From IMG/VR virus record IMGVR_UViG_2869924733_000008: a stretch of 39,122 nucleotides of DNA, one strand, 5' to 3'. The translations under genes were made by a program, and so were the position numbers. Below the pieces are notes generated by a model. The model worked only from the letters and a program-made list of their open reading frames with translations, was not told where the DNA came from and did no database searches. Shown in pieces: positions 10,348-39,122 of the stretch (positions are counted from its first letter, which is position 1; every line of letters starts with the position of its first letter). The DNA comes from a virus (lineage: Duplodnaviria > Heunggongvirae > Uroviricota > Caudoviricetes).

Positions 10348-11800
10348 TGAGGTAGCCTGAGTTTAACGGACACTCCTTCCTGAAATAGAATGGCATCAGA
10401 AGGAGCTAATAATGAGCAGAAAAACCCAACGTTACTCTAAAGAGTTCAAAGCCGAAGCTGTCAGAACGGTTCTTGAAAATCAACTTTCGATCAGTGAAGG
10501 CGCTTCCCGATTATCCCTTCCTGAAGGCACTTTAGGACAATGGGTTACCGCCGCCAGAAAAGGGCTCGGTACTCCTGGTTCCCGCACGGTGGCTGAACTG
10601 GAATCTGAAATTCTGCAACTGCGTAAGGCGTTAAATGAAGCTCGCCTTGAGCGAGATATATTAAAAAAAGCAACTGTAGATTCAATTGGTCAACGCAACA
10701 GTTATGTGAAAACATGGGGTTGCGGAGGTTTTTTGAATGAGACGAACATTTACAGCAGAGGAAAAAGCCTCTGTTTTTGAACTATGGAAGAACGGAACAG
10801 GCTTCAGTGAAATAGCGAATATCCTGGGTTCAAAACCCGGAACGATCTTCACTATGTTAAGGGATACTGGCGGCATAAAACCCCATGAGCGTAAGCGGGC
10901 TGTAGCTCACCTGACACTGTCTGAGCGCGAGGAGATACGAGCTGGTTTGTCAGCCAAAATGAGCATTCGTGCGATAGCTACTGCGCTGAATCGCAGTCCT
11001 TCGACGATCTCACGTGAAGTTCAGCGTAATCGGGGCAGACGCTATTACAAAGCTGTTGATGCTAATAACCGAGCCAACAGAATGGCGAAAAGGCCAAAAC
11101 CGTGCTTACTGGATCAAAATTTACCATTGCGAAAGCTTGTTCTGGAAAAGCTGGAGATGAAATGGTCTCCAGAGCAAATATCAGGATGGTTAAGGCGAAC
11201 AAAACCACGTCAAAAAACGCTGCGAATATCACCTGAGACAATTTATAAAACGCTGTACTTTCGTAGCCGTGAAGCGCTACACCACCTGAATATACAGCAT
11301 CTGCGACGGTCGCATAGCCTTCGCCATGGCAGGCGTCATACCCGCAAAGGCGAAAGAGGTACGATTAACATAGTGAACGGAACACCAATTCACGAACGTT
11401 CCCGAAATATCGATAACAGACGCTCTCTGGGGCATTGGGAGGGCGATTTAGTCTCAGGTACAAAAAACTCTCATATAGCCACACTTGTAGACCGAAAATC
11501 ACGTTATACGATCATCCTTAGACTCAGGGGCAAAGATTCTGTCTCAGTAAATCAGGCTCTTACCGACAAATTCCTGAGTTTACCGTCAGAACTCAGAAAA
11601 TCACTGACATGGGACAGAGGAATGGAACTGGCCAGACATCTAGAATTTACTGTCAGCACCGGCGTTAAAGTTTACTTCTGCGATCCTCAGAGTCCTTGGC
11701 AGCGGGGAACAAATGAGAACACAAATGGGCTAATTCGGCAGTACTTTCCTAAAAAGACATGTCTTGCCCAATATACTCAACATGAACTAGGCTGTGTCCC

Positions 11801-12316
11801 TTAATTACGTAAGCGTTGATAAAAGAGTCGGATGCAGCCCAGTTTCACCATCGCCAGGTAATTTCTCGCCGTTTTGTCGTAACGCGTGGCGATGCGGCGA
11901 TATTCTTTCAGCCGCCCAAAGCACCGTTCAACGACATTACGATTGCAGTACGCATCACGATCAAGCTGTGCACGTCCATCCGATGCCATTTTCTCATTTG
12001 ACTTTCGGGGGATTACTGCCTTTATACCGTTATTTTTCAGCTCGTTGCGCAATGCGCGCCCTGAATACGCTTTATCAGCCAGTACCGCATGTCCACGGCG
12101 TTTCATGCTGCCGTTCTGACGCTGAACGCCAATCCCGTCCAGAAGTCGTTGCGCGAACTGGCTTTCATGAGCTTGTCCGGGGCTTAGCACGATATTTAAC
12201 GGGAGGCCACTTCCGTCTGTTGCCAGATGGATTTTGGTGCCAAAACCGCCGCGAGAGCGACCCAGCCCATTATCTCCGTCGATATCGGGATGTTTTTTTG
12301 AGCACCGGCGGCACAT
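11801..12316 (-). CDS. IS5-family transposase orfB (DDE region; probably joined to orfA by frameshifting)
   Basis: Overlaps orfA by about 120 nt in another frame; contains DKAYSG, typical of DDE transposases of this group. Confidence 0.5.
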   Translation of the reverse strand: MCRRCSKKHPDIDGDNGLGRSRGGFGTKIHLATDGSGLPLNIVLSPGQAHESQFAQRLLDGIGVQRQNGSMKRRGHAVLADKAYSGRALRNELKNNGIKAVIPRKSNEKMASDGRAQLDRDAYCNRNVVERCFGRLKEYRRIATRYDKTARNYLAMVKLGCIRLFYQRLRN

Positions 12317-12645
12317 TTCAGCGCCCGGATATTACTGCCATCCAGCGCGGTGGCAGACCAGTCAATAAAGCCGTTTGCATCAAGTAGCGAAAGCAACCTG
12401 TTGAAAATAATATTAATCACGCCTGACTTTGACCATCGGTTAAAGCGGTTATAAACAGTTTTCCATGACCCATATCGTTCGGGTAAATCGCGCCATGGTG
12501 CACCGGAACATAACACCCAGAACATGCCATTGATGATTTTACGGTGCTCAGCCCATGGGCGTCCGGCCCGTGGTGTGGCGGGTTCAGGAGGTAACAGGGG
12601 CTTGATGATGGTCCATGCCTCATCGGGAAGGTCGTAGCGAGCCAT
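12196..12645 (-). CDS. IS5-family transposase orfA (149 aa)
   Basis: Contains ..PWRDLPERYGSWKTVYNRFNRWSKSGV.., a motif typical of the N-terminal part of IS5-family (IS427-group) transposases. Confidence 0.6.
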   Translation of the reverse strand: MARYDLPDEAWTIIKPLLPPEPATPRAGRPWAEHRKIINGMFWVLCSGAPWRDLPERYGSWKTVYNRFNRWSKSGVINIIFNRLLSLLDANGFIDWSATALDGSNIRALKCAAGAQKNIPISTEIMGWVALAAVLAPKSIWQQTEVASR

Positions 12646-12890
12646 AGTTCAATATGTTGTGTAAACAGACAGTTACTATAGCTCAGATGATTAAGGGACA
12701 CAGCCTAGATCTGGTTGCTGCTCAGCTAAACAACAGACCGAGAAAGACACTGAAGTTCAAAACACCGAAAGAGATAATTGAAAGGGGTGTTGCATTGACA
12801 GATTGAATCTACAACAGCGTATTTTGCACAGGAGTCGCTGAAAAATACGCGTTAATCGAACAATGGCGACAACAATTTCCCATTGAAGCG

Positions 12891-13709
12891 ATGTGTCAGG
12901 TATTTGGTGTATCCAGGAGCGGTTATTACAACTGGGTACAGCATGAACCCTCAGACAGAAAACAAAGTGATGAGCGGCTAAAACTGGAGATTAAGGTGGC
13001 ACATATCCGCACTCGCGAAACATATGGAACCCGGCGGCTCCAGACGGAGCTGGCAGAGAATGGCATCATCGTTGGTCGTGACCGACTGGCACGTCTTCGT
13101 AAGGAGCTAAGGCTACGCTGTAAGCAGAAACGCAAGTTCAGAGCGACTACGAACCCGAACCACAATCTGCCAGTTGCGCCAAATCTGCTGAACCAGACGT
13201 TCGCTCCTACAGCACCAAATCAGGTCTGGGTGGCGGACCTGACGTATGTTGCCACACAGGAGGGATGGTTGTACCTCGCTGGCATCAAAGATGTTTATAC
13301 GTGCGAAATTGTCGGCTACGCCATGGGAGAGCGCATGACAAAAGAGCTGACAGGTAAAGCCCTGTTTATGGCGCTCAGGAGCCAGCGCCCACCTGCCGGG
13401 CTAATCCACCACTCTGATCGAGGTTCACAGTACTGCGCATACGATTACCGGGTCATACAGGAGCAGTTTGGTCTGAAAACATCAATGTCGCGTAAAGGTA
13501 ACAGTTACGACAACGCTCCGATGGAAAGCTTCTGGGGAACGCTGAAAAATGAGAGCCTGAGCCACTATCGTTTTAATAACCGGGATGAAGCCATCTCAGT
13601 AATACGGGAATACATTGAGATTTTCTACAATCGTCAGCGTCGTCACTCTCGTCTGGGGAATATCTCCCCGGCAGCCTTCAGGGAAAAATATCATCAGATG
13701 GCTGCTTAA
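12891..13709 (+). CDS. IS600 orfB (transposase catalytic part, 272 aa)
   Basis: [25 protein letters not shown]... with DDE-type motifs (..[11 protein letters not shown].., ..[10 protein letters not shown]..); follows orfA of the same element. Confidence 0.8.
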   Translation: MCQVFGVSRSGYYNWVQHEPSDRKQSDERLKLEIKVAHIRTRETYGTRRLQTELAENGIIVGRDRLARLRKELRLRCKQKRKFRATTNPNHNLPVAPNLLNQTFAPTAPNQVWVADLTYVATQEGWLYLAGIKDVYTCEIVGYAMGERMTKELTGKALFMALRSQRPPAGLIHHSDRGSQYCAYDYRVIQEQFGLKTSMSRKGNSYDNAPMESFWGTLKNESLSHYRFNNRDEAISVIREYIEIFYNRQRRHSRLGNISPAAFREKYHQMAA

Positions 13710-13752
13710 AAAAAGAACAAATGGTAGTGTCCGCTATTGCCAGTACACCTCA

Positions 13753-23754: not shown

Positions 23755-24283
23755 TGAGGTGTACTGGCAATAGCGGACACTACCATTTGTTCTTTTTTTA
23801 AGCAGCCATCTGATGATATTTTTCCCTGAAGGCTGCCGGGGAGATATTCCCCAGACGAGAGTGACGACGCTGACGATTGTAGAAAATCTCAATGTATTCC
23901 CGTATTACTGAGATGGCTTCATCCCGGTTATTAAAACGATAGTGGCTCAGGCTCTCATTTTTCAGCGTTCCCCAGAAGCTTTCCATCGGAGCGTTGTCGT
24001 AACTGTTACCTTTACGCGACATTGATGTTTTCAGACCAAACTGCTCCTGTATGACCCGGTAATCGTATGCGCAGTACTGTGAACCTCGATCAGAGTGGTG
24101 GATTAGCCCGGCAGGTGGGCGCTGGCTCCTGAGCGCCATAAACAGGGCTTTACCTGTCAGCTCTTTTGTCATGCGCTCTCCCATGGCGTAGCTAGACTGG
24201 CCCCCTGAATCTCCAGACAACCAGTATCACTTAAATAAGTGATAGTCTTAATACTAGTTTTTAGACTAGTCATTGGAGTACAG

Positions 24284-24649
24284 ATGATTGATGTCTTAGG
24301 GCCGGAGAAACGCAGACGGCGTACCACACAGGAAAAGATCGCAATTGTTCAGCAGAGCTTTGAACCGGGGATGACGGTCTCCCTCGTTGCCCGGCAACAT
24401 GGTGTAGCAGCCAGCCAGTTATTTCTCTGGCGTAAGCAATACCAGGAAGGAAGTCTTACTGCTGTGGCCGCCGGAGAACAGGTTGTTCCTGCCTCTGAAC
24501 TTGCTGCCGCCATGAAGCAGATTAAAGAACTCCAGCGCCTGCTCGGCAAGAAAACGATGGAAAATGAACTCCTCAAAGAAGCCGTTGAATATGGACGGGC
24601 AAAAAAGTGGATAGCGCACGCGCCCTTATTGCCCGGGGATGGGGAGTAA
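24284..24649 (+). CDS. insC: IS2 InsC (orfA, 121 aa)
   Basis: [47 protein letters not shown]... matches recalled IS2 InsC. Confidence 0.9.
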
Positions 24650-25512
24650 GCTTAGTCAGCCGTTGTCTCCGGGTGTCGCGTGCGCAGTTGCACGTCATTC
24701 TCAGACGAACCGATGACTGGATGGATGGCCGCCGCAGTCGTCACACTGATGATACGGATGTGCTTCTCCGTATACACCATGTTATCGGAGAGCTGCCCAC
24801 GTATGGTTATCGTCGGGTATGGGCGCTGCTTCGCAGACAGGCAGAACTTGATGGTATGCCTGCGATCAATGCCAAACGTGTTTACCGGATCATGCGCCAG
24901 AATGCGCTGTTGCTTGAGCGAAAACCTGCTGTACCGCCATCGAAACGGGCACATACAGGCAGAGTGGCCGTGAAAGAAAGCAATCAGCGATGGTGCTCTG
25001 ACGGGTTCGAGTTCTGCTGTGATAACGGAGAGAGACTGCGTGTCACGTTCGCGCTGGACTGCTGTGATCGTGAGGCACTGCACTGGGCGGTGACTACCGG
25101 CGGCTTCAACAGTGAAACAGTACAGGACGTCATGCTGGGAGCGGTGGAACGCCGCTTCGGCAACGATCTTCCGTCGTCTCCAGTGGAGTGGCTGACGGAT
25201 AATGGTTCATGCTACCGGGCTAATGAAACACGCCAGTTCGCCCGGATGTTGGGACTTGAACCGAAGAACACGGCGGTGCGGAGTCCGGAGAGTAACGGAA
25301 TAGCAGAGAGCTTCGTGAAAACGATAAAGCGTGACTACATCAGTATCATGCCCAAACCAGACGGGTTAACGGCAGCAAAGAACCTTGCAGAGGCGTTCGA
25401 GCATTATAACGAATGGCATCCGCATAGTGCGCTGGGTTATCGCTCGCCACGGGAATATCTGCGGCAGCGGGCTTGTAATGGGTTAAGTGATAACAGATGT
25501 CTGGAAATATAG
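24607..25512 (+). CDS. insD: IS2 InsD (orfB, 301 aa)
   Basis: [41 protein letters not shown]... matches recalled IS2 InsD. Confidence 0.9.
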
Positions 25513-26029
25513 GGGCAAATCCAGTAGCCGACAATTTCGCACGTATAAACATCTTTGATGCCAGCGAAGTACAACCATCCCTCCTGTGTGGCAACATACG
25601 TCAGGTCCGCCACCCAGACCTGATTTGGTGCTGTAGGAGCGAACGTCTGGTTCAGCAGATTTGGCGCAACTGGCAGATTGTGGTTCGGGTTCGTAGTCGC
25701 TCTGAACTTGCGTTTCTGCTTACAGCGTAGCCTTAGCTCCTTACGAAGACGTGCCAGTCGGTCACGACCAACGATGATGCCATTCTCTGCCAGCTCCGTC
25801 TGGAGCCGCCGGGTTCCATATGTTTCGCGAGTGCGGATATGTGCCACCTTAATCTCCAGTTTTAGCCGCTCATCACTTTGTTTTCTGTCTGAGGGTTCAT
25901 GCTGTACCCAGTTGTAATAACCGCTCCTGGATACACCAAATACCTGACACATCGCTTCAATGGGAAATTGTTGTCGCCATTGTTCGATTAACGCGTATTT
26001 TTCAGCGACTCCTGTGCAAAATACGCTGT

Positions 26030-27250
26030 TGTAGATTCAATCTGTCAATGCAACACCCCTTTCAATTATCTCTTTCGGTGTTTTGAACTTCAGTGTCTTT
26101 CTCGGTCTGTTGTTTAGCTGAGCAGCAACCAGATCTAGTTCATGTTGAGTATATTGGGCAAGACATGTCTTTTTAGGAAAGTACTGCCGAATTAGCCCAT
26201 TTGTGTTCTCATTTGTTCCCCGCTGCCAAGGACTCTGAGGATCGCAGAAGTAAACTTTAACGCCGGTGCTGACAGTAAATTCTAGATGTCTGGCCAGTTC
26301 CATTCCTCTGTCCCATGTCAGTGATTTTCTGAGTTCTGACGGTAAACTCAGGAATTTGTCGGTAAGAGCCTGATTTACTGAGACAGAATCTTTGCCCCTG
26401 AGTCTAAGGATGATCGTATAACGTGATTTTCGGTCTACAAGTGTGGCTATATGAGAGTTTTTTGTACCTGAGACTAAATCGCCCTCCCAATGCCCCAGAG
26501 AGCGTCTGTTATCGATATTTCGGGAACGTTCGTGAATTGGTGTTCCGTTCACTATGTTAATCGTACCTCTTTCGCCTTTGCGGGTATGACGCCTGCCATG
26601 GCGAAGGCTATGCGACCGTCGCAGATGCTGTATATTCAGGTGGTGTAGCGCTTCACGGCTACGAAAGTACAGCGTTTTATAAATTGTCTCAGGTGATATT
26701 CGCAGCGTTTTTTGACGTGGTTTTGTTCGCCTTAACCATCCTGATATTTGCTCTGGAGACCATTTCATCTCCAGCTTTTCCAGAACAAGCTTTCGCAATG
26801 GTAAATTTTGATCCAGTAAGCACGGTTTTGGCCTTTTCGCCATTCTGTTGGCTCGGTTATTAGCATCAACAGCTTTGTAATAGCGTCTGCCCCGATTACG
26901 CTGAACTTCACGTGAGATCGTCGAAGGACTGCGATTCAGCGCAGTAGCTATCGCACGAATGCTCATTTTGGCTGACAAACCAGCTCGTATCTCCTCGCGC
27001 TCAGACAGTGTCAGGTGAGCTACAGCCCGCTTACGCTCATGGGGTTTTATGCCGCCAGTATCCCTTAACATAGTGAAGATCGTTCCGGGTTTTGAACCCA
27101 GGATATTCGCTATTTCACTGAAGCCTGTTCCGTTCTTCCATAGTTCAAAAACAGAGGCTTTTTCCTCTGCTGTAAATGTTCGTCTCATTCAAAAAACCTC
27201 CGCAACCCCATGTTTTCACATAACTGTTGCGTTGACCAATTGAATCTACA
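26030..27250 (-). mobile_element. IS30 (1221 bp) inside IS600 copy 2
   Basis: IS30 terminal repeats at both ends; 2-bp duplication (GT on the plus strand) at 26028-29 and 27251-52. Confidence 0.9.
26037..27188 (-). CDS. insI: IS30 transposase (383 aa)
   Basis: [38 protein letters not shown]... full length, identical to the other intact copies. Confidence 0.95.
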   Translation of the reverse strand: MRRTFTAEEKASVFELWKNGTGFSEIANILGSKPGTIFTMLRDTGGIKPHERKRAVAHLTLSEREEIRAGLSAKMSIRAIATALNRSPSTISREVQRNRGRRYYKAVDANNRANRMAKRPKPCLLDQNLPLRKLVLEKLEMKWSPEQISGWLRRTKPRQKTLRISPETIYKTLYFRSREALHHLNIQHLRRSHSLRHGRRHTRKGERGTINIVNGTPIHERSRNIDNRRSLGHWEGDLVSGTKNSHIATLVDRKSRYTIILRLRGKDSVSVNQALTDKFLSLPSELRKSLTWDRGMELARHLEFTVSTGVKVYFCDPQSPWQRGTNENTNGLIRQYFPKKTCLAQYTQHELDLVAAQLNNRPRKTLKFKTPKEIIERGVALTD

Positions 27251-27952
27251 GTTGCTTTTTTTAATATATCTCGCTCAAGGCGAGCTTCATTTAACGCCTT
27301 ACGCAGTTGCAGAATTTCAGATTCCAGTTCAGCCACCGTGCGGGAACCAGGAGTACCGAGCCCTTTTCTGGCGGCGGTAACCCATTGTCCTAAAGTGCCT
27401 TCAGGAAGGGATAATCGGGAAGCGCCTTCACTGATCGAAAATTGATTTTCAAGAACCGTTCTGACAGCTTCGGCTTTGAACTCTTTAGAGTAACGTTGGG
27501 TTTTTCTGCTCATTATTAGCTCCTTCTGATGCCATTCTATTTCAGGAAGGAGTGTCCGTTAAACTCAGGCTACCTCAGGTCTTCCGACGATTCTGTCATT
27601 GTTCATTAAGCAAAAGTTTCCATGCTGTTTGTGCTTATTCTAAGCAACCGGGCAGCATCATACGGGGCAATTATGGCCGCATTACCATACATGCAACTGT
27701 ACATAGCTAATTACCTGGCTGACACCATGCATTTGTCAGCAGAGGAGCACGGCGCGTATTTGTTGCTGATGTTCAATTACTGGCAAACAGGAAAGCCAAT
27801 ACCCAAAAACAGGTTGGCAAAAATTGCCCGTCTGACTAACGAGCGATGGGTTGATGTTGAACCATCCTTGCGGGAGTTTTTTTGTGATAACGGCGACGAA
27901 TGGATGCATCTTCGGATTGAGGAAGATCTGGCATCTGTCAGTGGATTTGCCC

Positions 27953-28858
27953 CTATATTTCCAGACATCTGTTATCACTTAACCCATTACAAGCCCGCTG
28001 CCGCAGATATTCCCGTGGCGAGCGATAACCCAGCGCACTATGCGGATGCCATTCGTTATAATGCTCGAACGCCTCTGCAAGGTTCTTTGCTGCCGTTAAC
28101 CCGTCTGGTTTGGGCATGATACTGATGTAGTCACGCTTTATCGTTTTCACGAAGCTCTCTGCTATTCCGTTACTCTCCGGACTCCGCACCGCCGTGTTCT
28201 TCGGTTCAAGTCCCAACATCCGGGCGAACTGGCGTGTTTCATTAGCCCGGTAGCATGAACCATTATCCGTCAGCCACTCCACTGGAGACGACGGAAGATC
28301 GTTGCCGAAGCGGCGTTCCACCGCTCCCAGCATGACGTCCTGTACTGTTTCACTGTTGAAGCCGCCGGTAGTCACCGCCCAGTGCAGTGCCTCACGATCA
28401 CAGCAGTCCAGCGCGAACGTGACACGCAGTCTCTCTCCGTTATCACAGCAGAACTCGAACCCGTCAGAGCACCATCGCTGATTGCTTTCTTTCACGGCCA
28501 CTCTGCCTGTATGTGCCCGTTTCGATGGCGGTACAGCAGGTTTTCGCTCAAGCAACAGCGCATTCTGGCGCATGATCCGGTAAACACGTTTGGCATTAAT
28601 CGCAGGCATACCATCAAGTTCTGCCTGTCTGCGAAGCAGCGCCCATACCCGACGATAACCATACGTGGGCAGCTCTCCGATAACATGGTGTATACGGAGA
28701 AGCACATCCGTATCATCAGTGTGACGACTGCGGCGGCCATCCATCCAGTCATCGGTTCGTCTGAGAATGACGTGCAACTGCGCACGCGACACCCGGAGAC
28801 AACGGCTGACTAAGCTTACTCCCCATCCCCGGGCAATAAGGGCGCGTGCGCTATCCAC
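27953..28858 (-). CDS. insD: IS2 InsD (orfB, 301 aa)
   Basis: Same protein as 24607-25512, apart from one substitution. Confidence 0.9.
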
Positions 28859-29181
28859 TTTTTTGCCCGTCCATATTCAACGGCTTCTTTGAGGAGTTCA
28901 TTTTCCATCGTTTTCTTGCCGAGCAGGCGCTGGAGTTCTTTAATCTGCTTCATGGCGGCAGTAAGTTCAGAGGCAGGAACAACCTGTTCTCCGGCGGCCA
29001 CAGCAGTAAGACTTCCTTCCTGGTATTGCTTACGCCAGAGAAATAACTGGCTGGCTGCTACACCATGTTGCCGGGCAACGAGGGAGACCGTCATCCCCGG
29101 TTCAAAGCTCTGCTGAACAATTGCGATCTTTTCCTGTGTGGTACGCCGTCTGCGTTTCTCCGGCCCTAAGACATCAATCAT
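28816..29181 (-). CDS. insC: IS2 InsC (orfA, 121 aa), cut off from the IS2 left end by IS630
   Basis: [13 protein letters not shown]...; the longer ORF to 29238 is read-through from the IS630 end. Confidence 0.85.
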
Positions 29182-29198
29182 CTGTACTCCAATGACTA

Positions 29199-30351
29199 AA
29201 TAGCTGCGCTTAATACCGCTACACTTTTGCCAGTCCATGTTTGCCTCCGGGGAATGGGCTGACGGTTTCCATAAAATGGCGAACTTTTTTCAACAGTTGC
29301 CACATTGAGCGGCACTGATGATTACGCGTTATTGTGTCGTGAAGTGCCTGCCATAGCCGTTCAACATGATTCACCCATGGCGAGTAAACCGGCTGATAAA
29401 TGACCCTGAACTTCGGGTTCTCCTTCAGCCAGCTCTGTGTTTCCCGGCTTTTGTGGATAATGTAGTTGTCCACGATCAGCGTGATGGTTTTCGCCCGACG
29501 GTATGTCGCTTTAAGCCGCTTCAGCAGGCTGATGAACAGCGCCGAACTTTTGCTGTTGCCGCCCACATAGCTGACTTTACCTGTCCCGCTGTGCAGCGCT
29601 CCGGCCAGATAATATTTTTCATTCTGTCCCGGCGTGACCACCCGTTTTTGCTGTCCGCGCAGTTGCCAGTCCGCACCGATTTTGGGATAAAGATGGATAT
29701 CCACTTCATCTTCATAAAAGACCGGATGCTCTGCGCTGCATTCGTCCAGTGCTTTATGGATTGCTGCCATCTTTTCATCTTTATGCGGGTCACGGATACG
29801 CAGAGTTGGCGCAGCCCTTCGCCACACAATCCCCGCAGACGGCAACCAGCGGCGAACGGTTCCGGCATTTAACTGGCAACCGGTTATCTCATTGATTTTT
29901 ATTGCCAGCAGTTCTGTACTCCAGCGTGAACGCTGGTAGACAAAGTCGCCGGGAGAATGTTTTACCAGCTCACGTAACAGTGTGCAGATATGCTCAAACG
30001 GCCAGCGACGGGCACGCCCGGCAGGTAATGATTTCAGTCCCTCAACACCCGACTGCGTGAACCAGTTAATCCAGCGTCCAACAGAGGAACGGGCGCAGCA
30101 GAGCGTTCTGGCAACGTCGCTGACACGGTCGCCCCGGTGCAGCATCAGCATGGCAGTCAGTCTGCGGGCATAATTTTTATCGTGTGTTTTATGGATGGCT
30201 TTCTGCATCAGGCGTCGTTCGTCACGGGAAATTGGTGCTATGATCGGCATTGCTCAGTCCGGTTGGTGATTTGTTTTGATTTGGCGATTGATCAGATCGC
30301 ACAATCCGGGCTAAGTTCCCTCAAAGTGATCTACTATTCCGCGCAGCTATT
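29199..30351 (-). mobile_element. IS630 (1153 bp) inserted in the IS2 left-end region
   Basis: Terminal repeats AATAGCTGCGC.../...GCGCAGCTATT; TA duplication inside the IS2 sequence ..AGACTAGTC.. (CTAG target). Confidence 0.85.
29219..30250 (-). CDS. IS630 transposase (Tc1/mariner superfamily, 343 aa)
   Basis: [31 protein letters not shown]... matches recalled IS630 transposase; size is exact. Confidence 0.85.
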
Positions 30352-30536
30352 TAGTCTAAAAACTAGTATTAAGACTATCACTTATTTAAGTGATACTGGT
30401 TGTCTGGAGATTCAGGGGGCCAGTCTAGTCAGAGAAAAATTAACCAAAAAATCAGCCGCAGGAAAAGCATCTGTTCAGGCCAGAAGAAGCAGAAAGGAAG
30501 CAGATGTTCAAACAAAACAAGAGAGAAATTTAACAG

Positions 30537-31289
30537 GTGTTCGAACATGATGCCAACACAAAGGCAACTAATAAAGATACAGATAAAGCTCTAAAAACAG
30601 ATCTAACCCATCCCAAACCCTTCCCTTCCGGAAGGGAGTTTCGGGATTTTGTGGCTGGAGTGCTTGAGGGGAGATTATCTGGCGGTACTGCAGCGGAATT
30701 TTGTAATTCTGCGGTGGTTGCGTTGCAGGCTGCTGGCCTGGATGTCTGTCGTGAGTATCCGGTGCCAGAGCGTGGTGACGGTTGCGGAGGGCGGATTGAT
30801 ATCGTCGTGACTGACAGGAACGGTGTCCGGTGTGGGATCGAGCTTGACCGAAATTCTCCGCGACAGAAATCACTGCTCAAAATCGGTGCTGTTGAAACCG
30901 GGATATGTGTCTTGCGGCGCAGTGATATCGCAAGGCACACCGAGCAGGGAATTCTGGTTATCGGTGGGGCTGTTCGCCAGAAAAAATTTGACCCGTTGTC
31001 AGTTGATCTGCCCGACTGGTTGCCAGAAACACTCTGGCATGAGTGGGTCCAGTTCAGGCAGGCATTGCGAAAACCGATTCGAACGGAGCAGGGCGCTAAC
31101 GGGGCGATACGGGAACTGGAAAAATTCCGTCAGCAGGGTTTTACACCTGAGCAGGTGATTCGACACAGCATCGCCAATGAATACCATGGTCTGTTCGCGC
31201 CGAAAGGTGTTCGGCCTGAGACGTTGCTCCGACAGGTTAACACCGTCTCGTTGCCGGACAGTGCGATCCCGCCAGGCTTCAGGGGGTAA
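30537..31289 (+). CDS. Phage replication protein with DnaT-like C-terminal domain
   Basis: C-terminus ..VNTVSLPDSAIPPGFRG parallels the recalled E. coli DnaT C-terminus (..NTVSEPDSQIPPGFRG). Apparent GTG start overlaps the stop of the upstream DUF1376 ORF; the two may be one frameshifted gene or two genes. Confidence 0.5.
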   Translation: MFEHDANTKATNKDTDKALKTDLTHPKPFPSGREFRDFVAGVLEGRLSGGTAAEFCNSAVVALQAAGLDVCREYPVPERGDGCGGRIDIVVTDRNGVRCGIELDRNSPRQKSLLKIGAVETGICVLRRSDIARHTEQGILVIGGAVRQKKFDPLSVDLPDWLPETLWHEWVQFRQALRKPIRTEQGANGAIRELEKFRQQGFTPEQVIRHSIANEYHGLFAPKGVRPETLLRQVNTVSLPDSAIPPGFRG

Positions 31290-31295
31290 CAGACC

Positions 31296-32042
31296 ATGAA
31301 AAATATTGCGACAGGAGGCGTTCTGGAGCGTATCCGCAGACTGACCCCACCACATGTAACCGCCCCATTCAGAACGGTTGCGGAGTGGCGCGAGTGGCAA
31401 CTTGCTGAAGGCCAGAAACGTTGCGAGGAGATCAACCGCCTGAATCGTCAGTTGCGGGTGGAAAAAATCCTGAACCGCTCCGGCATCCAGCCGTTGCACC
31501 GGAAGTGTTCGTTTGCGAATTACCGGGCGCAGAACGACGGTCAGCGACATGCACTGAGTCAGGCGAAATCCATAGCTGACGAACTGATGACAGGCTGTAC
31601 GAATTTTGTGTTCAGCGGTAAGCCCGGCACCGGAAAAAATCATCTTGCAGCCGCGATTGGCAACCGGCTGATGGCGAAGGGGCGTAGCGTGATTATCGTC
31701 ACCGTGTCCGATGTCATGAGCGTGTTGCATGAGAGCTACGACAACGGCAAATCCGGTGAAAAATTTTTACAGGAGCTTTGTGGTGTTGACCTGCTGGTCC
31801 TGGATGAAATTGGCATGCAGCGGGATACGAAAAACGAGCAGGTGGTACTGAACCAGATTGTTGATCGCCGGACGGCATCGTTACGCGGTGTGGGGATGCT
31901 GACAAATATTAACCATGCAGCGATGAATACACTTCTCGGCGAGCGGGTGATGGATCGCATGGTCATGAACGGCGGGCGCTGGGTGAATTTTAACTGGGAG
32001 AGCTGGCGTCCGAATGTTAGCCATTCGAGGGTTGTTAAGTAG
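31296..32042 (+). CDS. DnaC-like helicase loader (IstB-type AAA+ ATPase)
   Basis: Walker A GKPGTGKNHLAAAIG and Walker B LLVLDEIG; 248 aa; typical replication-module partner of the DnaT/YdaU-like gene. Confidence 0.85.
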   Translation: MKNIATGGVLERIRRLTPPHVTAPFRTVAEWREWQLAEGQKRCEEINRLNRQLRVEKILNRSGIQPLHRKCSFANYRAQNDGQRHALSQAKSIADELMTGCTNFVFSGKPGTGKNHLAAAIGNRLMAKGRSVIIVTVSDVMSVLHESYDNGKSGEKFLQELCGVDLLVLDEIGMQRDTKNEQVVLNQIVDRRTASLRGVGMLTNINHAAMNTLLGERVMDRMVMNGGRWVNFNWESWRPNVSHSRVVK

Positions 32043-32056
32043 TTTCAGGAGGATTT

Positions 32057-32158
32057 ATGGCGAAACCTTTTACTCCCGAACAGCGGGAAGAACTGAAGAC
32101 GCGAATTGTGGAACTCGTGCATCAGGACGGTCGGGTCACGATTCGGCAGTTGTCAGAT
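32057..32158 (+). pseudogene. Small phage gene truncated after 34 codons by the IS911 end
   Basis: MAKPFTPEQREELKTRIVELVHQDGRVTIRQLSD, then a TGA supplied by the first bases of the IS911 inverted repeat. Confidence 0.4.
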
Positions 32159-34295: not shown

Positions 34296-34527
34296 GTAGC
34301 CTTTTTTAATATTTCATTCTCCATTTCAATGCGTTGTAGCTTTTTCCTCAGCTTACGTATTTCGATTTGTTCTGGTGTTATCGGAGAGGCTTTTGGTGTT
34401 TTGCCCTGACGCTCATCACGCAGTTGTTTGACCCATCTTGTCATTGTGGAAAGGCCAACATCCATAGCTTTGGCGGCATCTGCCTGAGGTGTACTGGCAA
34501 TAGCGGACACTACCATTTGTTCTTTTT

Positions 34528-35346
34528 TTAAGCAGCCATCTGATGATATTTTTCCTTGAAGGCTGCCGGGGAGATATTCCCCAGACGAGAGTGACGACGC
34601 TGACGATTGTAGAAAATCTCAATGTATTCCCGTATTACTGAGATGGCTTCATCCCGGTTATTAAAACGATAGTGGCTCAGGCTCTCATTTTTCAGCGTTC
34701 CCCAGAAGCTTTCCATCGGAGCGTTGTCGTAACAGTTACCTTTACGCGACATTGATGTTTTCAGACCAAACTGCTCCTGTATGACCCGGTAATCGTATGC
34801 GCAGTACTGTGAACCTCGATCAGAGTGGTGGATTAGCCCGGCAGGTGGGCGCTGGCTCCTGAGCGCCATAAACAGGGCTTTACCTGTCAGCTCTTTTGTC
34901 ATGCGCTCTCCCATGGCGTAGCCGACAATTTCGCACGTATAAACATCTTTGATGCCAGCGAGGTACAACCATCCCTCCTGTGTGGCAACATACGTCAGGT
35001 CCGCCACCCAGACCTGATTTGGTGCTGTAGGAGCGAACGTCTGGTTCAGCAGATTTGGCGCAACTGGCAGATTGTGGTTCGGGTTCGTAGTCGCTCTGAA
35101 CTTGCGTTTCTGCTTACAGCGTAGCCTTAGCTCCTTACGAAGACGTGCCAGTCGGTCACGACCAACGATGATGCCATTCTCTGCCAGCTCCGTCTGGAGC
35201 CGCCGGGTTCCATATGTTTCGCGAGTGCGGATATGTGCCACCTTAATCTCCAGTTTTAGCCGCTCATCACTTTGTTTTCTGTCTGAGGGTTCATGCTGTA
35301 CCCAGTTGTAATAACCGCCCCTGGATACACCAAATACCTGACACAT
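34528..35346 (-). CDS. IS600 orfB (272 aa)
   Basis: Same protein as 12891-13709 with three substitutions (S10G, S/C, R/K). Confidence 0.8.
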
Positions 35347-35423
35347 CGCTTCAATGGGAAATTGTTGTCGCCATTGTTCGATTAACGCGTATTTTTCAGC
35401 GACTCCTGTGCAAAATACGCTGT

Positions 35424-36644
35424 TGTAGATTCAATTGGTCAACGCAACAGTTATGTGAAAACATGGGGTTGCGGAGGTTTTTTGAATGAGACGAACATTT
35501 ACAGCAGAGGAAAAAGCCTCTGTTTTTGAACTATGGAAGAACGGAACAGGCTTCAGTGAAATAGCGAATATCCTGGGTTCAAAACCCGGAACGATCTTCA
35601 CTATGTTAAGGGATACTGGCGGCATAAAACCCCATGAGCGTAAGCGGGCTGTAGCTCACCTGACACTGTCTGAGCGCGAGGAGATACGAGCTGGTTTGTC
35701 AGCCAAAATGAGCATTCGTGCGATAGCTACTGCGCTGAATCGCAGTCCTTCGACGATCTCACGTGAAGTTCAGCGTAATCGGGGCAGACGCTATTACAAA
35801 GCTGTTGATGCTAATAACCGAGCCAACAGAATGGCGAAAAGGCCAAAACCGTGCTTACTGGATCAAAATTTACCATTGCGAAAGCTTGTTCTGGAAAAGC
35901 TGGAGATGAAATGGTCTCCAGAGCAAATATCAGGATGGTTAAGGCGAACAAAACCACGTCAAAAAACGCTGCGAATATCACCTGAGACAATTTATAAAAC
36001 GCTGTACTTTCGTAGCCGTGAAGCGCTACACCACCTGAATATACAGCATCTGCGACGGTCGCATAGCCTTCGCCATGGCAGGCGTCATACCCGCAAAGGC
36101 GAAAGAGGTACGATTAACATAGTGAACGGAACACCAATTCACGAACGTTCCCGAAATATCGATAACAGACGCTCTCTGGGGCATTGGGAGGGCGATTTAG
36201 TCTCAGGTACAAAAAACTCTCATATAGCCACACTTGTAGACCGAAAATCACGTTATACGATCATCCTTAGACTCAGGGGCAAAGATTCTGTCTCAGTAAA
36301 TCAGGCTCTTACCGACAAATTCCTGAGTTTACCGTCAGAACTCAGAAAATCACTGACATGGGACAGAGGAATGGAACTGGCCAGACATCTAGAATTTACT
36401 GTCAGCACCGGCGTTAAAGTTTACTTCTGCGATCCTCAGAGTCCTTGGCAGCGGGGAACAAATGAGAACACAAATGGGCTAATTCGGCAGTACTTTCCTA
36501 AAAAGACATGTCTTGCCCAATATACTCAACATGAACTAGATCTGGTTGCTGCTCAGCTAAACAACAGACCGAGAAAGACACTGAAGTTCAAAACACCGAA
36601 AGAGATAATTGAAAGGGGTGTTGCATTGACAGATTGAATCTACA
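35424..36644 (+). mobile_element. IS30 (1221 bp) inside IS600 copy 3, opposite orientation to its host element
   Basis: IS30 terminal repeats; 2-bp duplication at 35422-23 and 36645-46. Confidence 0.9.
35486..36637 (+). CDS. insI: IS30 transposase (383 aa)
   Basis: Full-length, identical protein to the other intact copies. Confidence 0.95.
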   Translation: MRRTFTAEEKASVFELWKNGTGFSEIANILGSKPGTIFTMLRDTGGIKPHERKRAVAHLTLSEREEIRAGLSAKMSIRAIATALNRSPSTISREVQRNRGRRYYKAVDANNRANRMAKRPKPCLLDQNLPLRKLVLEKLEMKWSPEQISGWLRRTKPRQKTLRISPETIYKTLYFRSREALHHLNIQHLRRSHSLRHGRRHTRKGERGTINIVNGTPIHERSRNIDNRRSLGHWEGDLVSGTKNSHIATLVDRKSRYTIILRLRGKDSVSVNQALTDKFLSLPSELRKSLTWDRGMELARHLEFTVSTGVKVYFCDPQSPWQRGTNENTNGLIRQYFPKKTCLAQYTQHELDLVAAQLNNRPRKTLKFKTPKEIIERGVALTD

Positions 36645-37169
36645 GTTGCTTTTTTTAATATATCTCGCTCAAGGCGAGCTTCATTTAACGCCTTACGCAG
36701 TTGCAGAATTTCAGATTCCAGTTCAGCCACCGTGCGGGAACCAGGAGTACCGAGCCCTTTTCTGGCGGCGGTAACCCATTGTCCTAAAGTGCCTTCAGGA
36801 AGGGATAATCGGGAAGCGCCTTCACTGATCGAAAATTGATTTTCAAGAACCGTTCTGACAGCTTCGGCTTTGAACTCTTTAGAGTAACGTTGGGTTTTTC
36901 TGCTCATTATTAGCTCCTTCTGATGCCATTCTATTTCAGGAAGGAGTGTCCGTTAAACTCAGGCTACCTCAGCCACCGTGTATTTCTGGTCAACAACCAG
37001 TTGAGCGGATTCGCGTTTAAACTCTGCGCTAAAATTTCTTTTTTTCATTGGAGCACCTGTGTTGTTCTGAGGTGAGCATATCACCTCTGTTCAGGTGGCC
37101 AAATTCAGTGTGCCACTTCATATCTTAAACTACCGGAATGAACTGCTGCATGGAGAAACGCTTTACCTA

Positions 37170-38322
37170 AATAGCTGCGCGGAATAGTAGATCACTTTGA
37201 GGGAACTTAGCCCGGATTGTGCGATCTGATCAATCGCCAAATCAAAACAAATCACCAACCGGACTGAGCAATGCCGATCATAGCACCAATTTCCCGTGAC
37301 GAACGACGCCTGATGCAGAAAGCCATCCATAAAACACACGATAAAAATTATGCCCGCAGACTGACTGCCATGCTGATGCTGCACCGGGGCGACCGTGTCA
37401 GCGACGTTGCCAGAACGCTCTGCTGCGCCCGTTCCTCTGTTGGACGCTGGATTAACTGGTTCACGCAGTCGGGTGTTGAGGGACTGAAATCATTACCTGC
37501 CGGGCGTGCCCGTCGCTGGCCGTTTGAGCATATCTGCACACTGTTACGTGAGCTGGTAAAACATTCTCCCGGCGACTTTGTCTACCAGCGTTCACGCTGG
37601 AGTACAGAACTGCTGGCAATAAAAATCAATGAGATAACCGGTTGCCAGTTAAATGCCGGAACCGTTCGCCGCTGGTTGCCGTCTGCGGGGATTGTGTGGC
37701 GAAGGGCTGCGCCAACTCTGCGTATCCGTGACCCGCATAAAGATGAAAAGATGGCAGCAATCCATAAAGCACTGGACGAATGCAGCGCAGAGCATCCGGT
37801 CTTTTATGAAGATGAAGTGGATATCCATCTTCATCCCAAAATCGGTGCGGACTGGCAACTGCGCGGACAGCAAAAACGGGTGGTCACGCCGGGACAGAAT
37901 GAAAAATATTATCTGGCCGGAGCGCTGCACAGCGGGACAGGTAAAGTCAGCTATGTGGGCGGCAACAGCAAAAGTTCGGCGCTGTTCATCAGCCTGCTGA
38001 AGCGGCTTAAAGCGACATACCGTCGGGCGAAAACCATCACGCTGATCGTGGACAACTACATTATCCACAAAAGCCGGGAAACACAGAGCTGGCTGAAGGA
38101 GAACCCGAAGTTCAGGGTCATTTATCAGCCGGTTTACTCGCCATGGGTGAATCATGTTGAACGGCTATGGCAGGCACTTCACGACACAATAACGCGTAAT
38201 CATCAGTGCCGCTCAATGTGGCAACTGTTGAAAAAAGTTCGCCATTTTATGGAAACCGTCAGCCCATTCCCCGGAGGCAAACATGGACTGGCAAAAGTGT
38301 AGCGGTATTAAGCGCAGCTATT
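37170..38322 (+). mobile_element. IS630 (1153 bp) inserted in the integrase gene
   Basis: Same terminal repeats as the other copy; TA duplication (37168-69 and 38323-24) within ..ACCTAGAT.. (CTAG target). Confidence 0.85.
37271..38302 (+). CDS. IS630 transposase (343 aa)
   Basis: Identical to 29219-30250 except one residue (H/Y). Confidence 0.85.
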   Translation: MPIIAPISRDERRLMQKAIHKTHDKNYARRLTAMLMLHRGDRVSDVARTLCCARSSVGRWINWFTQSGVEGLKSLPAGRARRWPFEHICTLLRELVKHSPGDFVYQRSRWSTELLAIKINEITGCQLNAGTVRRWLPSAGIVWRRAAPTLRIRDPHKDEKMAAIHKALDECSAEHPVFYEDEVDIHLHPKIGADWQLRGQQKRVVTPGQNEKYYLAGALHSGTGKVSYVGGNSKSSALFISLLKRLKATYRRAKTITLIVDNYIIHKSRETQSWLKENPKFRVIYQPVYSPWVNHVERLWQALHDTITRNHQCRSMWQLLKKVRHFMETVSPFPGGKHGLAKV

Positions 38323-39122
38323 TAGATAATCCAAGATCCAACAAAAAAGGAAGAACCGTGCGCACAGTTGATAACTATATCGCCCTGCTCTGTTCGTTGT
38401 TACGTTTTGCGTATCAGTCGGGATTTATATCAACCAAACCATTTGAAGGAGTAAAAAAATTACAGCGAAACAGAATAAAGCCTGACCCGTTATCTAAAAC
38501 AGAATTCAATGCATTAATGGAAAGTGAAAAAGGACAGAGCCAAAACTTGTGGAAATTTGCCGTTTACTCCGGGCTTCGTCACGGGGAACTGGCAGCTCTG
38601 GCGTGGGAGGATGTGGATTTCGAGAAGGGAATTGTGAATGTCAGAAGAAACCTGACGATACTTGATATGTTCGGTCCCCCAAAAACAAATGCCGGGATCC
38701 GGACGGTAACATTACTGCAGCCGGCTCTTGAAGCACTGAAGGAGCAATACAAACTGACCGGGCATCATCGCAAAAGCGAAATCACTTTTTATCATCGGGA
38801 GTACGGCAGAACTGAAAAGCAAAAACTGCATTTTGTTTTCATGCCCAGGGTGTGTAACGAAAAACAGAAACCTTATTACTCGGTAAGCAGTTTGGGTGCA
38901 AGATGGAATGCAGCAGTAAAACGTGCTGGTATTCGCCGCCGTAATCCGTACCATACGCGACATACTTTTGCCTGCTGGCTGTTGACGGCAGGAGCGAACC
39001 CGGCATTTATAGCCAGCCAGATGGGGCATGAAACTGCGCAAATGGTGTATGAAATTTACGGTATGTGGATTGATGACATGAACGACGAACAGATAGCCAT
39101 GTTGAATGCGCGGTTATCGTAG

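What the first reader, a model, noticed from the sequence alone, without database searches (positions are those of the whole stretch)
27942..30427. IS2 in the DUF1376 replication gene, with IS630 inserted between the IS2 left end and insC
IS2 (5-bp duplication GTCAG) interrupts the YdaU-like gene. IS630 then inserted at a TA inside the IS2 sequence ..TTTTTAGACTAGTCATTGG.., between the left terminal repeat and the insC start at 29181. That placement should uncouple insC/insD from the IS2 left-end promoter region. Lengths add exactly (1331 + 1153 + 2 = 2486).
Basis: partly seen in the sequence, partly recalled or inferred. Interest (0 to 1): 0.5.

Follow-up and report, generated by a model that had tools for sequence, protein, structure and literature searches.

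The report
IS630 nested inside IS2 in prophage
One common jumping gene (IS2) has landed in a prophage replication gene and a second one (IS630) has landed inside it at its known CTAG target, which is an ordinary, well-understood kind of nested insertion.

Summary
IS2 occupies 27942-30427 on the minus strand, flanked by a 5-bp GTCAG duplication, inside a YdaU/DUF1376 gene. E. coli VL40 has the uninterrupted gene with a single GTCAG. A 1153-bp IS630 (29199-30351, same orientation) sits at the TA of a CTAG at IS2 positions 74-77, with the TA duplicated. Removing IS630 and one TA gives a 1331-bp IS2 that differs from copy A at 2 bases.

By published IS2 coordinates, the insertion lies downstream of the left repeat, the OrfA operator (39-48) and the weak promoter PIRL (48-56). 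It lies 16 nt upstream of the insC ATG, so it is in the 5' leader. "Uncoupling" is only partly right. IS630 is co-oriented, I found no terminator, and the insC ribosome-binding site is intact. Read-through from IS630 into insC/insD is therefore plausible but untested.

IS2 has only two CTAGs, both in this leader. In other enterobacterial genomes and plasmids, IS630-family elements occupy both CTAGs in both orientations. The nesting follows from the known CTAG specificity of IS630. The window matches CP027027.1 exactly, probably Shigella dysenteriae E670/74. Ordinary, low interest.

The parts
27622..27941 (+). 5' part of the YdaU-like (DUF1376) prophage gene, up to the IS2 insertion point
   Evidence: Pfam DUF1376 at 88.5 bits. 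99.7% identical to the E. coli VL40 ydaU region.
27937..27941 (.). Left copy of the 5-bp target duplication GTCAG made by IS2
   Evidence: It is a single copy in the empty site of VL40.
27942..29198 (-). IS2 positions 75-1331. Contains the right inverted repeat (27942-27982), insD/orfB (27953-28858), the A6G frameshift window (28858-28864), insC/orfA (28816-29181) and its Shine-Dalgarno GGAG (29187-29190).
   Evidence: 99.84% identical to copy A. NCBIfam IS2 TnpA and TnpB both above cut-off. A6G at IS2 position 409.
29197..29198 (.). TA target duplication of IS630, copy on the insC side
29199..30351 (-). IS630, 1153 bp, co-oriented with IS2. The transposase gene is 29219-30250 (343 aa).
   Evidence: 11-bp perfect terminal inverted repeats. 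NF033545 at 255 bits plus Pfam DDE_3. 99.9% identical to the second copy at 37170-38322. 99.6% identical to an element that PGAP names IS630 in FDAARGOS_943.
29182..29238 (-). In-frame upstream ATG (29236-29238), preceded by GGAGG-N5, in the IS630 right end. It opens a 140-aa N-terminally extended InsC reading frame (28816-29238).
   Evidence: the ORF listing. Sequence read. Called as a gene in the GenBank assemblies.
30352..30427 (-). IS2 positions 1-76, now detached from orfA. Contains the left inverted repeat (30386-30427), the OrfA operator at positions 39-48 (30380-30389), the PIRL extended -10 at positions 48-56 (30372-30380), the unused CTAG at positions 62-65 (30363-30366), and the second TA copy (30352-30353).
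   Evidence: 100% identical to copy A positions 1-76. Positions of the operator and PIRL are taken from PMC3299598. TGAT at positions 48-51 was read directly.
30428..30432 (.). Right copy of the 5-bp target duplication GTCAG
30433..31289 (+). 3' part of the YdaU-like gene. It carries an additional 23-bp deletion at 30536/30537 that shifts the frame.
   Evidence: Alignment with VL40, which has one continuous 400-aa ORF.
24193..25523 (+). IS2 copy A, an uninterrupted 1331-bp comparator with target duplication GTAGC
37170..38322 (+). Second IS630 copy (comparator), also inserted at the TA of a CTAG

Best explanation
Two successive, ordinary transposition events occurred in a decaying Rac-like prophage. 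The host is probably Shigella dysenteriae E670/74.

(1) IS2 (IS3 family, copy-out/paste-in) inserted into the ydaU-like putative replication-initiator gene and duplicated GTCAG. This step is shown.

(2) IS630 (Tc1/mariner-like, cut-and-paste) inserted into the TA of the CTAG at IS2 positions 74-77 and duplicated TA. The structure is shown. That IS630 arrived after IS2 was already in ydaU is inferred.

The site is explained by the published preference of IS630 for 5'-CTAG-3'. CTAG is about 10-fold under-represented in this DNA. IS2 has only two CTAGs, and both lie in its 5' leader.

Consequences for IS2, all inferred. The left inverted repeat, the OrfA operator, PIRL and the left-repeat part of the minicircle junction promoter Pjunc are now 1155 bp upstream of the insC ribosome-binding site. 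IS630 is co-oriented, its stop codon is 38 nt from the insC ATG, and no terminator is predicted. insC/insD have therefore become distal cistrons of a possible PIRL/IS630-promoter -> IS630 transposase -> insC -> insD transcript. Expression is probably changed and partly freed from OrfA autoregulation, rather than simply abolished.

Both IS2 reading frames, the A6G frameshift site and both IS2 ends are intact. The 2486-bp unit could therefore still move, at least with transposase from other IS2 copies.

The ydaU gene is dead either way, because of the IS insertion plus the 23-bp frameshifting deletion.
For: Boundaries, duplications and excision arithmetic.

Empty site with a single GTCAG and an intact 400-aa ORF in E. 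coli VL40.

Family assignments above curated cut-offs.

Copy B differs from copy A at 2 nt. One changes InsC A74T and one is synonymous in orfB. A6G is retained.

PIRL extended -10 starts with TGAT at positions 48-51 and the OrfA site is at 39-48 (PMC3299598). TGAT is at 48-51 in this sequence.

No terminator-like site on the minus strand anywhere in 27900-30470.

IS2 has CTAG only at positions 62 and 74. The window has 15 CTAG against 152 expected from base composition.

The second IS630 in the window is also in a CTAG.

CTAG preference is on record in the title of Tenzen & Ohtsubo 1991, cited in PMC2170065.

IS630-family elements at these same two CTAGs of IS2-group elements elsewhere:
- Position 75/76, same orientation: E. 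coli FDAARGOS_943 and ZH142, K. pneumoniae plasmids CP031818 and OP378653, E. albertii plasmids.
- Position 75/76, opposite orientation: Serratia plasmid CP068396.
- Position 63/64, same orientation: S. dysenteriae E670/74 plasmid CP027028.1 and Klebsiella OW849273.
- Position 63/64, opposite orientation: 73 E. coli genomes.

Co-transcription of an IS630-family transposase gene (ISFtu1) with downstream genes has been reported (review PMC9330008).
Against: There are no expression data, so read-through, polarity and promoter activity are all inferred.

The consensus scan found no sigma-70-like promoter anywhere in the region. It did not even find the documented weak PIRL, so it says little.

The order of the two insertions is not proven, because the GTCAG duplication would look the same if the 2486-bp composite had inserted as a unit.

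The primary papers on IS630 target choice and on the IS2 left end (PMC208372, PMC213363, PMC321474) could not be read.

The transcription start of PIRL is assumed from the -10 position.
Confidence: 0.9

Rival explanations
1. IS630 entered an IS2 copy elsewhere first. The 2486-bp IS2::IS630 composite then transposed as one unit into ydaU, using the IS2 ends and IS2 transposase made in cis by read-through or supplied in trans by other copies.
For: The GTCAG duplication brackets the whole composite, both IS2 ends are intact and both IS2 reading frames are open. A same-length composite with its own 5-bp duplication sits at a different locus in E. coli FDAARGOS_943. The Klebsiella and E. albertii versions diverge about equally in both parts, 93.1% and 93.5%.
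Against: An exact-match look-up of the junction-specific 140-aa ORF found only this one locus. That look-up would miss copies carrying any substitution. The FDAARGOS_943 composite has an IS2 part about 5% diverged (62 differences) but an IS630 part only 0.4% diverged (5 differences), which fits an independent insertion. ZH142 against the Klebsiella plasmid is discordant the other way: IS2 part 99.4%, IS630-like part 80.5%. Both CTAGs and both orientations occur in other lineages, as expected from repeated independent hits.
Confidence: 0.1
2. One reading: IS630 fully uncouples insC/insD from any promoter, so IS2 copy B is transcriptionally silent and effectively dead.
For: PIRL is weak (PMC3299598) and is now 1155 bp further from the insC ribosome-binding site. 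Long untranslated or foreign stretches can cause polarity. In FDAARGOS_943 the IS2 part of the same kind of composite is annotated with an internal stop, which fits decay after inactivation.
Against: IS630 is co-oriented and its ORF is translated up to 38 nt from the insC ATG, which works against Rho-dependent polarity. No terminator-like hairpin was found on that strand. The Shine-Dalgarno sequence and ATG of insC are intact. Copy B shows only 2 substitutions against copy A and no disabling mutation.
Confidence: 0.25
3. Assembly artefact: repeats collapsed or were mis-joined, giving an apparent nesting.
For: The region is extremely rich in repeated IS copies.
Against: Base-perfect TA and GTCAG duplications. 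The same structure is in two separate complete assemblies. Analogous structures are found in unrelated genomes.
Confidence: 0.01

Closest known systems
IS2 (IS3 family, IS2 group) of E. coli and Shigella
   Same: 1331 bp. Ends are TAGACTGG... and ...CAAATCCA. 5-bp target duplication. orfA (121 aa) and orfB (301 aa) with an A6G frameshift window. TGAT of PIRL at positions 48-51. NCBIfam IS2-specific models are above cut-off.
   Different: This copy carries a 1155-bp insertion in its 5' leader and one InsC substitution (A74T) relative to the neighbouring copy.
IS630 of Shigella sonnei (IS630/Tc1/mariner superfamily)
   Same: 1153 bp, terminal inverted repeats, one 343-aa DDE transposase, TA duplication, insertion into 5'-CTAG-3'.
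   Different: Nothing structural. The only particular feature is that its target is another insertion sequence.
Nested insertion sequences in IS-rich Shigella genomes
   Same: One site-specific IS lands in another. The same window also has IS30 inside an IS600-like element three times, an IS5-family element inside one of those IS30 copies (CTAG duplication), and IS2 copy A inside the IS600-like element.
   Different: Here the inner element is co-oriented and lies exactly between the outer element's promoter/operator and its first gene. This gives an operon-like arrangement of two unrelated transposase systems.
Rac prophage ydaS-ydaT-ydaU-ydaV-ydaW module of E. coli K-12
   Same: ydaT remnant, ydaU (DUF1376), a DnaC-like ATPase (31296-32042) and the start of a DUF977 gene, in the same order as in E. 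coli VL40.
   Different: ydaU is interrupted by IS2::IS630 and frameshifted by a 23-bp deletion. Both flanks of the module are cut by other IS elements.

Membership tests
IS2 (IS3 family) | Element of about 1331 bp with imperfect 41/42-bp terminal inverted repeats (5'-TAG...TTAA on the left, 5'-TGG...TTAA on the right) | tested here: met
   1331 bp after removal of IS630 plus one TA. The ends were read directly. 2 mismatches to copy A. End motifs are as quoted in PMC3299598.
IS2 (IS3 family) | 5-bp direct target duplication | tested here: met
   GTCAG on both sides, single in the empty site of E. coli VL40.
IS2 (IS3 family) | [quoted passage not shown] Products match the IS2 TnpA and TnpB models. 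| tested here: met
   AAAAAAG at IS2 position 409. NF006928 at 274.6 bits (cut-off 229) and NF006918 at 727.6 bits (cut-off 597).
IS2 (IS3 family) | Extended -10 promoter PIRL just inside the left inverted repeat (TGAT at 48-51) and the OrfA operator at 39-48 | tested here: met
   The sequence TTAAATAAGTGATAGTCT is present at positions 39-56 of both copies. Positions are from PMC3299598. Promoter activity was not tested.
IS2 (IS3 family) | Transposition through a minicircle with junction promoter Pjunc | not testable with these tools
   Needs an in vivo circle-junction PCR or a transposition assay.
IS630 (IS630/Tc1/mariner) | Element of about 1.15 kb with short terminal inverted repeats | tested here: met
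   1153 bp. The 11 terminal bases are perfectly inverted, with partial matches beyond that.
IS630 (IS630/Tc1/mariner) | Duplication of a target TA | tested here: met
   TA at 29197-98 and at 30352-53. The uninterrupted IS2 copy A has one TA there.
IS630 (IS630/Tc1/mariner) | Preference for the TA within 5'-CTAG-3' | tested here: met
   The target is GAC-TA-GTC at IS2 positions 72-79. The second copy in the window sits in CC-TA-GA. All related insertions found elsewhere are also in CTAG. The preference itself is known only from the title of Tenzen & Ohtsubo 1991, cited.
IS630 (IS630/Tc1/mariner) | Single DDE transposase with N-terminal helix-turn-helix domains | tested here: met
   343 aa. NF033545 at 255.4 bits (cut-off 100). 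Pfam DDE_3 at 85.3 bits plus HTH_23, HTH_32 and HTH_29.
IS630 (IS630/Tc1/mariner) | Identity to the ISfinder reference IS630 | tested here: inconclusive
   ISfinder is not available here. A copy 99.6% identical in E. coli FDAARGOS_943 is named 'IS630-like element IS630 family transposase' by PGAP.
YdaU / DUF1376 prophage protein | DUF1376 domain | tested here: met
   PF07120 at 88.5 bits (cut-off 30.1), residues 22-104.
YdaU / DUF1376 prophage protein | Rac-type neighbourhood: ydaT upstream, DnaC-like ATPase and DUF977 gene downstream | tested here: met
   Colinear with E. coli VL40 over 27578-27941 and 30428-32158. NF009043 at 506.9 bits for 31296-32042.
YdaU / DUF1376 prophage protein | Replication-initiator function | not testable with these tools
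   The only support is the PGAP product name 'phage replication initiator YdaU family protein'.

The most novel reading that the evidence does not exclude
The 5' leader of IS2-group elements is a conserved landing pad for the whole IS630 clade (IS630, ISEc33-like, ISSpu2-like). In the co-oriented form, the composite acts as a piggy-back unit. IS630 transposase would be transcribed from the IS2 promoters PIRL and Pjunc. IS2 transposase would be made by read-through from IS630, free of OrfA autorepression. The 2486-bp unit would spread using the IS2 ends, so a cut-and-paste element would gain a copy-out/paste-in vehicle.
Probability: 0.1. Interest if true: 0.35.

Novelty: already known. Interest (0 to 1): 0.13.

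Why it matters
It matters little beyond correct annotation.

- The 140-aa 'InsC' and 165-aa 'DUF1376' genes called in the GenBank records are junction artefacts.
- The ydaU-like gene is a pseudogene with two lesions.

The one small general point concerns CTAG. It is very rare in enterobacterial DNA, and the only two CTAGs in IS2 lie between its promoter and its first gene. IS630-family elements therefore repeatedly land there. I found about nine separate lineages across Shigella, E. coli, E. albertii, Klebsiella and Serratia.

This could be a recurrent, predictable way in which one insertion sequence alters the regulation of another. It is also a source of error when IS copies are counted from short reads.

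Tried and rejected
1. Orientation-specific hot spot. The first four related cases all had the IS630-like element at the same TA in the same orientation. That was partly a result of the query design. Searches with in-silico alternative junctions found the opposite orientation at the same TA (Serratia plasmid). They also found both orientations at the other CTAG. Rejected.

2. A single ancient composite that diverged as a unit. The divergence of the IS2 and IS630 parts is discordant in both directions:
- Window against FDAARGOS_943: IS630 part 99.6%, IS2 part 95.1%.
- ZH142 against the Klebsiella plasmid: IS630-like part 80.5%, IS2 part 99.4%.
Rejected as a general explanation. It remains possible for the Klebsiella/E. 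albertii pair.

3. Exact junction (GCGCAGCTATTTAGTCATTGGAG) in species-representative genomes and in JGI metagenome contigs: no hits. The phage collection has no record with the junction.

4. RNA folding of the new IS630-insC junction and of the native IS2 leader: neither is more stable than shuffled controls (z = 0.20 and -0.84). No structural argument can be made from this.

5. The promoter/terminator consensus scan gave no promoter-like site at all and one plus-strand terminator-like site, fewer than in the shuffles. It is uninformative for promoters.

6. Literature: no paper in the library mentions the accessions, and none was found that describes IS630 inside IS2. The primary Tenzen papers and Lewis 2004 are not held.
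Full report
**Observation.** The region was read directly and dissected by script. On the minus strand, 30427 down to 27942 begins TAGACTGGCCCCCTGAATCTCC and ends GGGGCAAATCCA. These are the ends of the uninterrupted IS2 copy A at 24193-25523.

GTCAG is present immediately outside both ends (27937-27941 and 30428-30432). Inside, 29199-30351 is a 1153-bp element bounded by AATAGCTGCGC...GCGCAGCTATT, with TA on either side (29197-98 and 30352-53).

Deleting that element and one TA leaves 1331 bp. This differs from copy A at only two positions, IS2 positions 311 and 675. The arithmetic 1331 + 1153 + 2 = 2486 is exact.

**Identity of the parts.**
- The 121-aa and 301-aa reading frames match the NCBIfam models 'IS2 repressor TnpA' (274.6 bits, cut-off 229) and 'IS2 transposase TnpB' (727.6 bits, cut-off 597).
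- The AAAAAAG frameshift window is present at IS2 position 409 in both copies.
- The two substitutions in copy B give InsC A74T and a synonymous change in orfB. Copy B is not obviously disabled.
- The inner element encodes one 343-aa protein that matches 'IS630 family transposase' (255.4 bits, cut-off 100) and Pfam DDE_3 plus helix-turn-helix domains.
- It is 99.9% identical to a second copy at 37170-38322.
- It is 99.6% identical to an element that PGAP names IS630 in E. coli FDAARGOS_943.

**The interrupted gene.** The N-terminal fragment has a DUF1376 domain (88.5 bits). Joining 27941 to 30433 in silico and searching E. coli genomes found the empty site in strains VL40 and FDAARGOS_944. There the sequence is colinear with 27578-27941 and 30428-32158, has a single GTCAG, and forms one 400-aa open reading frame.

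The neighbours there are ydaT upstream, and a DnaC-like ATPase and a DUF977 gene downstream. This is a Rac-type replication module. 'Replication gene' rests on the PGAP annotation only.

The window's gene also lacks 23 bp at 30536/30537, which shifts the frame. The gene is therefore doubly inactivated.

**Source.** The window is identical (0 mismatches over 20,498 bp) to CP027027.1, assembly GCA_002943855.1. A sister assembly, CP026824.1, has the same nested insertion at the same locus.

The next accession, CP027028.1, is the plasmid of Shigella dysenteriae E670/74. The window is therefore probably that strain's chromosome. This is an inference from adjacent accession numbers.

**Where in IS2 the insertion lies.** The duplicated TA is IS2 positions 75-76, inside GACTAGTC (72-79). 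According to PMC3299598:
- the left inverted repeat is 42 bp;
- the OrfA repressor site is within positions 39-48;
- the weak extended -10 promoter PIRL starts with TGAT at 48-51;
- the minicircle junction promoter Pjunc is assembled from the abutted ends.

In this sequence TGAT is at 48-51, the Shine-Dalgarno GGAG is at 83-86 and the insC ATG is at 92. IS630 therefore sits in the 5' leader, about 19 nt after the -10 element and 16 nt before the ATG. It separates every known IS2 promoter and the operator from the genes by 1155 bp.

**What it probably does (inferred).**
- IS630 has the same orientation as IS2.
- Its stop codon (29219-29221) is 38 nt from the insC ATG.
- The insC Shine-Dalgarno sequence is retained.
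- The scan found no terminator-like hairpin on the minus strand.
- Co-transcription of an IS630-family transposase gene with downstream genes has been reported for ISFtu1 (review PMC9330008).

The likely outcome is therefore re-routing rather than loss. insC/insD become distal cistrons behind the IS630 transposase gene. They would be reached by transcripts from PIRL, or from Pjunc in a minicircle, or from the IS630 promoter. Transcripts from the IS630 promoter would not be under OrfA control. The net level is unknown.

The IS630 right end also carries GGAGG-N5-ATG (ATG at 29236-29238), in frame with insC. This gives the 140-aa ORF that is annotated in the GenBank records. Whether that start is used is unknown. 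RNA folding of the junction gave nothing beyond shuffled controls.

**Why there.** IS630 is on record as preferring the TA in 5'-CTAG-3' (title of Tenzen & Ohtsubo 1991, cited). CTAG occurs 15 times in the window against 152 expected from base composition. IS2 has exactly two CTAGs, at positions 62 and 74, both in the leader. The second IS630 in the window is also in a CTAG.

**Related loci.** Searches of E. coli genomes and plasmids with the real junction and with in-silico alternative junctions found IS630-family elements at both sites in both orientations.

| IS2 site (TA position) | Orientation relative to IS2 | Where found |
|---|---|---|
| 75/76 | same | E. coli FDAARGOS_943 (IS630; IS2 part about 5% diverged; own 5-bp duplication at another locus) |
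| 75/76 | same | E. coli ZH142 (ISEc33-like) |
| 75/76 | same | K. pneumoniae plasmids CP031818 and OP378653 (ISSpu2-like) |
| 75/76 | same | E. albertii plasmids (relic) |
| 75/76 | opposite | Serratia plasmid CP068396 |
| 63/64 | same | Plasmid CP027028.1 of S. dysenteriae E670/74, the probable source strain |
| 63/64 | same | Klebsiella OW849273, whose IS2 leader has lost the second CTAG |
| 63/64 | opposite | 73 E. coli genomes, next to espG/nleE |

Divergence of the IS2 and IS630 parts is discordant between cases, so most of these are independent events. An early impression of a fixed site and orientation did not survive these controls.

The exact junction is absent from species-representative genomes, from JGI metagenome contigs and from the phage collection. 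Any one such nesting is rare even though the class recurs.

**Verdict.** This is a correctly described, ordinary nested insertion of two long-known elements. The known target specificity of the inner one explains it fully. The functional remark should be softened from 'uncoupled' to 'separated from its own promoter and operator and probably dependent on read-through', pending expression data.

The recurrent use of the two CTAGs in the IS2 leader by the IS630 clade is a tidy minor observation. I found no paper describing it, but it follows from what is known. Novelty: already known. Interest: low.

Noticed in passing
window 30536/30537: A 23-bp deletion relative to E. coli VL40 (TGTTCAAACAGATGTTGGAGTGA missing, between near-repeats TGTTCA/GAAC). 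It frameshifts the ydaU-like gene, so there is a second inactivating lesion independent of the IS insertion.
   Followed up: yes
window 10348-13752 (+), 23755-27578 (-), 34485-36972 (-): There are three copies of a 1265-bp IS3-family element, IS600-like by size. Each carries a 1221-bp IS30 at the identical internal site (element positions 326-328). IS30 is co-oriented in two copies and inverted in the third. In the sister genome CP026824.1 the IS30 next to ydaU is flipped relative to this window. This looks like an IS30 hot spot used repeatedly, or in-place inversion.
   Followed up: partly
window 11791-12704: A 914-bp IS5-family element (inverted repeats GCTGTGTCCCTTAAT.../...ATTAAGGGACACAGC, transposase split into 149-aa and 171-aa ORFs) is inserted in one IS30 copy with a 4-bp CTAG duplication. 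This makes a three-level nest: IS600-like, then IS30, then the IS5-family element.
   Followed up: partly
window 24193-25523: IS2 copy A (duplication GTAGC) is itself inserted in the second IS600-like copy, which already contains IS30.
   Followed up: partly
window 37170-38322 and 38283-39122: The second IS630 copy sits in a CTAG inside a tyrosine-recombinase (phage integrase-like) gene. The outward-facing GGAGG-N5-ATG in the IS630 right end opens an ORF that runs in frame into the downstream gene fragment, as it does into insC at 29238. In CP026824.1 the same region is called as a 478-aa transposase-integrase fusion.
   Followed up: partly
whole window: CTAG occurs 15 times against about 152 expected from base composition. 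Most occurrences lie inside or at the edges of IS elements (two per IS30 copy, two per IS2). CTAG-specific elements therefore have few targets other than other ISs.
   Followed up: yes
L013 (E. coli 2013C-3250, NZ_CP027380.1 545486-547041) and 72 other E. coli genomes: Between espG and nleE lies a relic. It consists of an inverted IS2 right-end fragment, IS2 left end positions 5-64, and an IS630-family pseudogene inserted at the other IS2 CTAG in the opposite orientation.
   Followed up: partly
L015 (S. dysenteriae E670/74 plasmid NZ_CP027028.1, about 84368-85584): On the plasmid of the probable source strain, IS630 sits at IS2 position 63/64 (the other CTAG) in a 64-bp IS2 left-end stub next to traT and the entry-exclusion gene. 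The rest of that IS2 is gone, which suggests a deletion or recombination adjacent to IS630.
   Followed up: partly
window 27622-28119 and 28816-29238: The 165-aa 'DUF1376' gene and the 140-aa 'HTH_Tnp_1' gene called in the public assemblies are chimeric ORFs. They run across the ydaU/IS2 junction and the IS630/IS2 junction respectively, so they are annotation artefacts.
   Followed up: yes
L004 against window, about 30419: CP026824.1 differs from the window by an apparent 1-bp indel at about 30419, inside the IS2 left inverted repeat. It may be real or a sequencing error.
   Followed up: no
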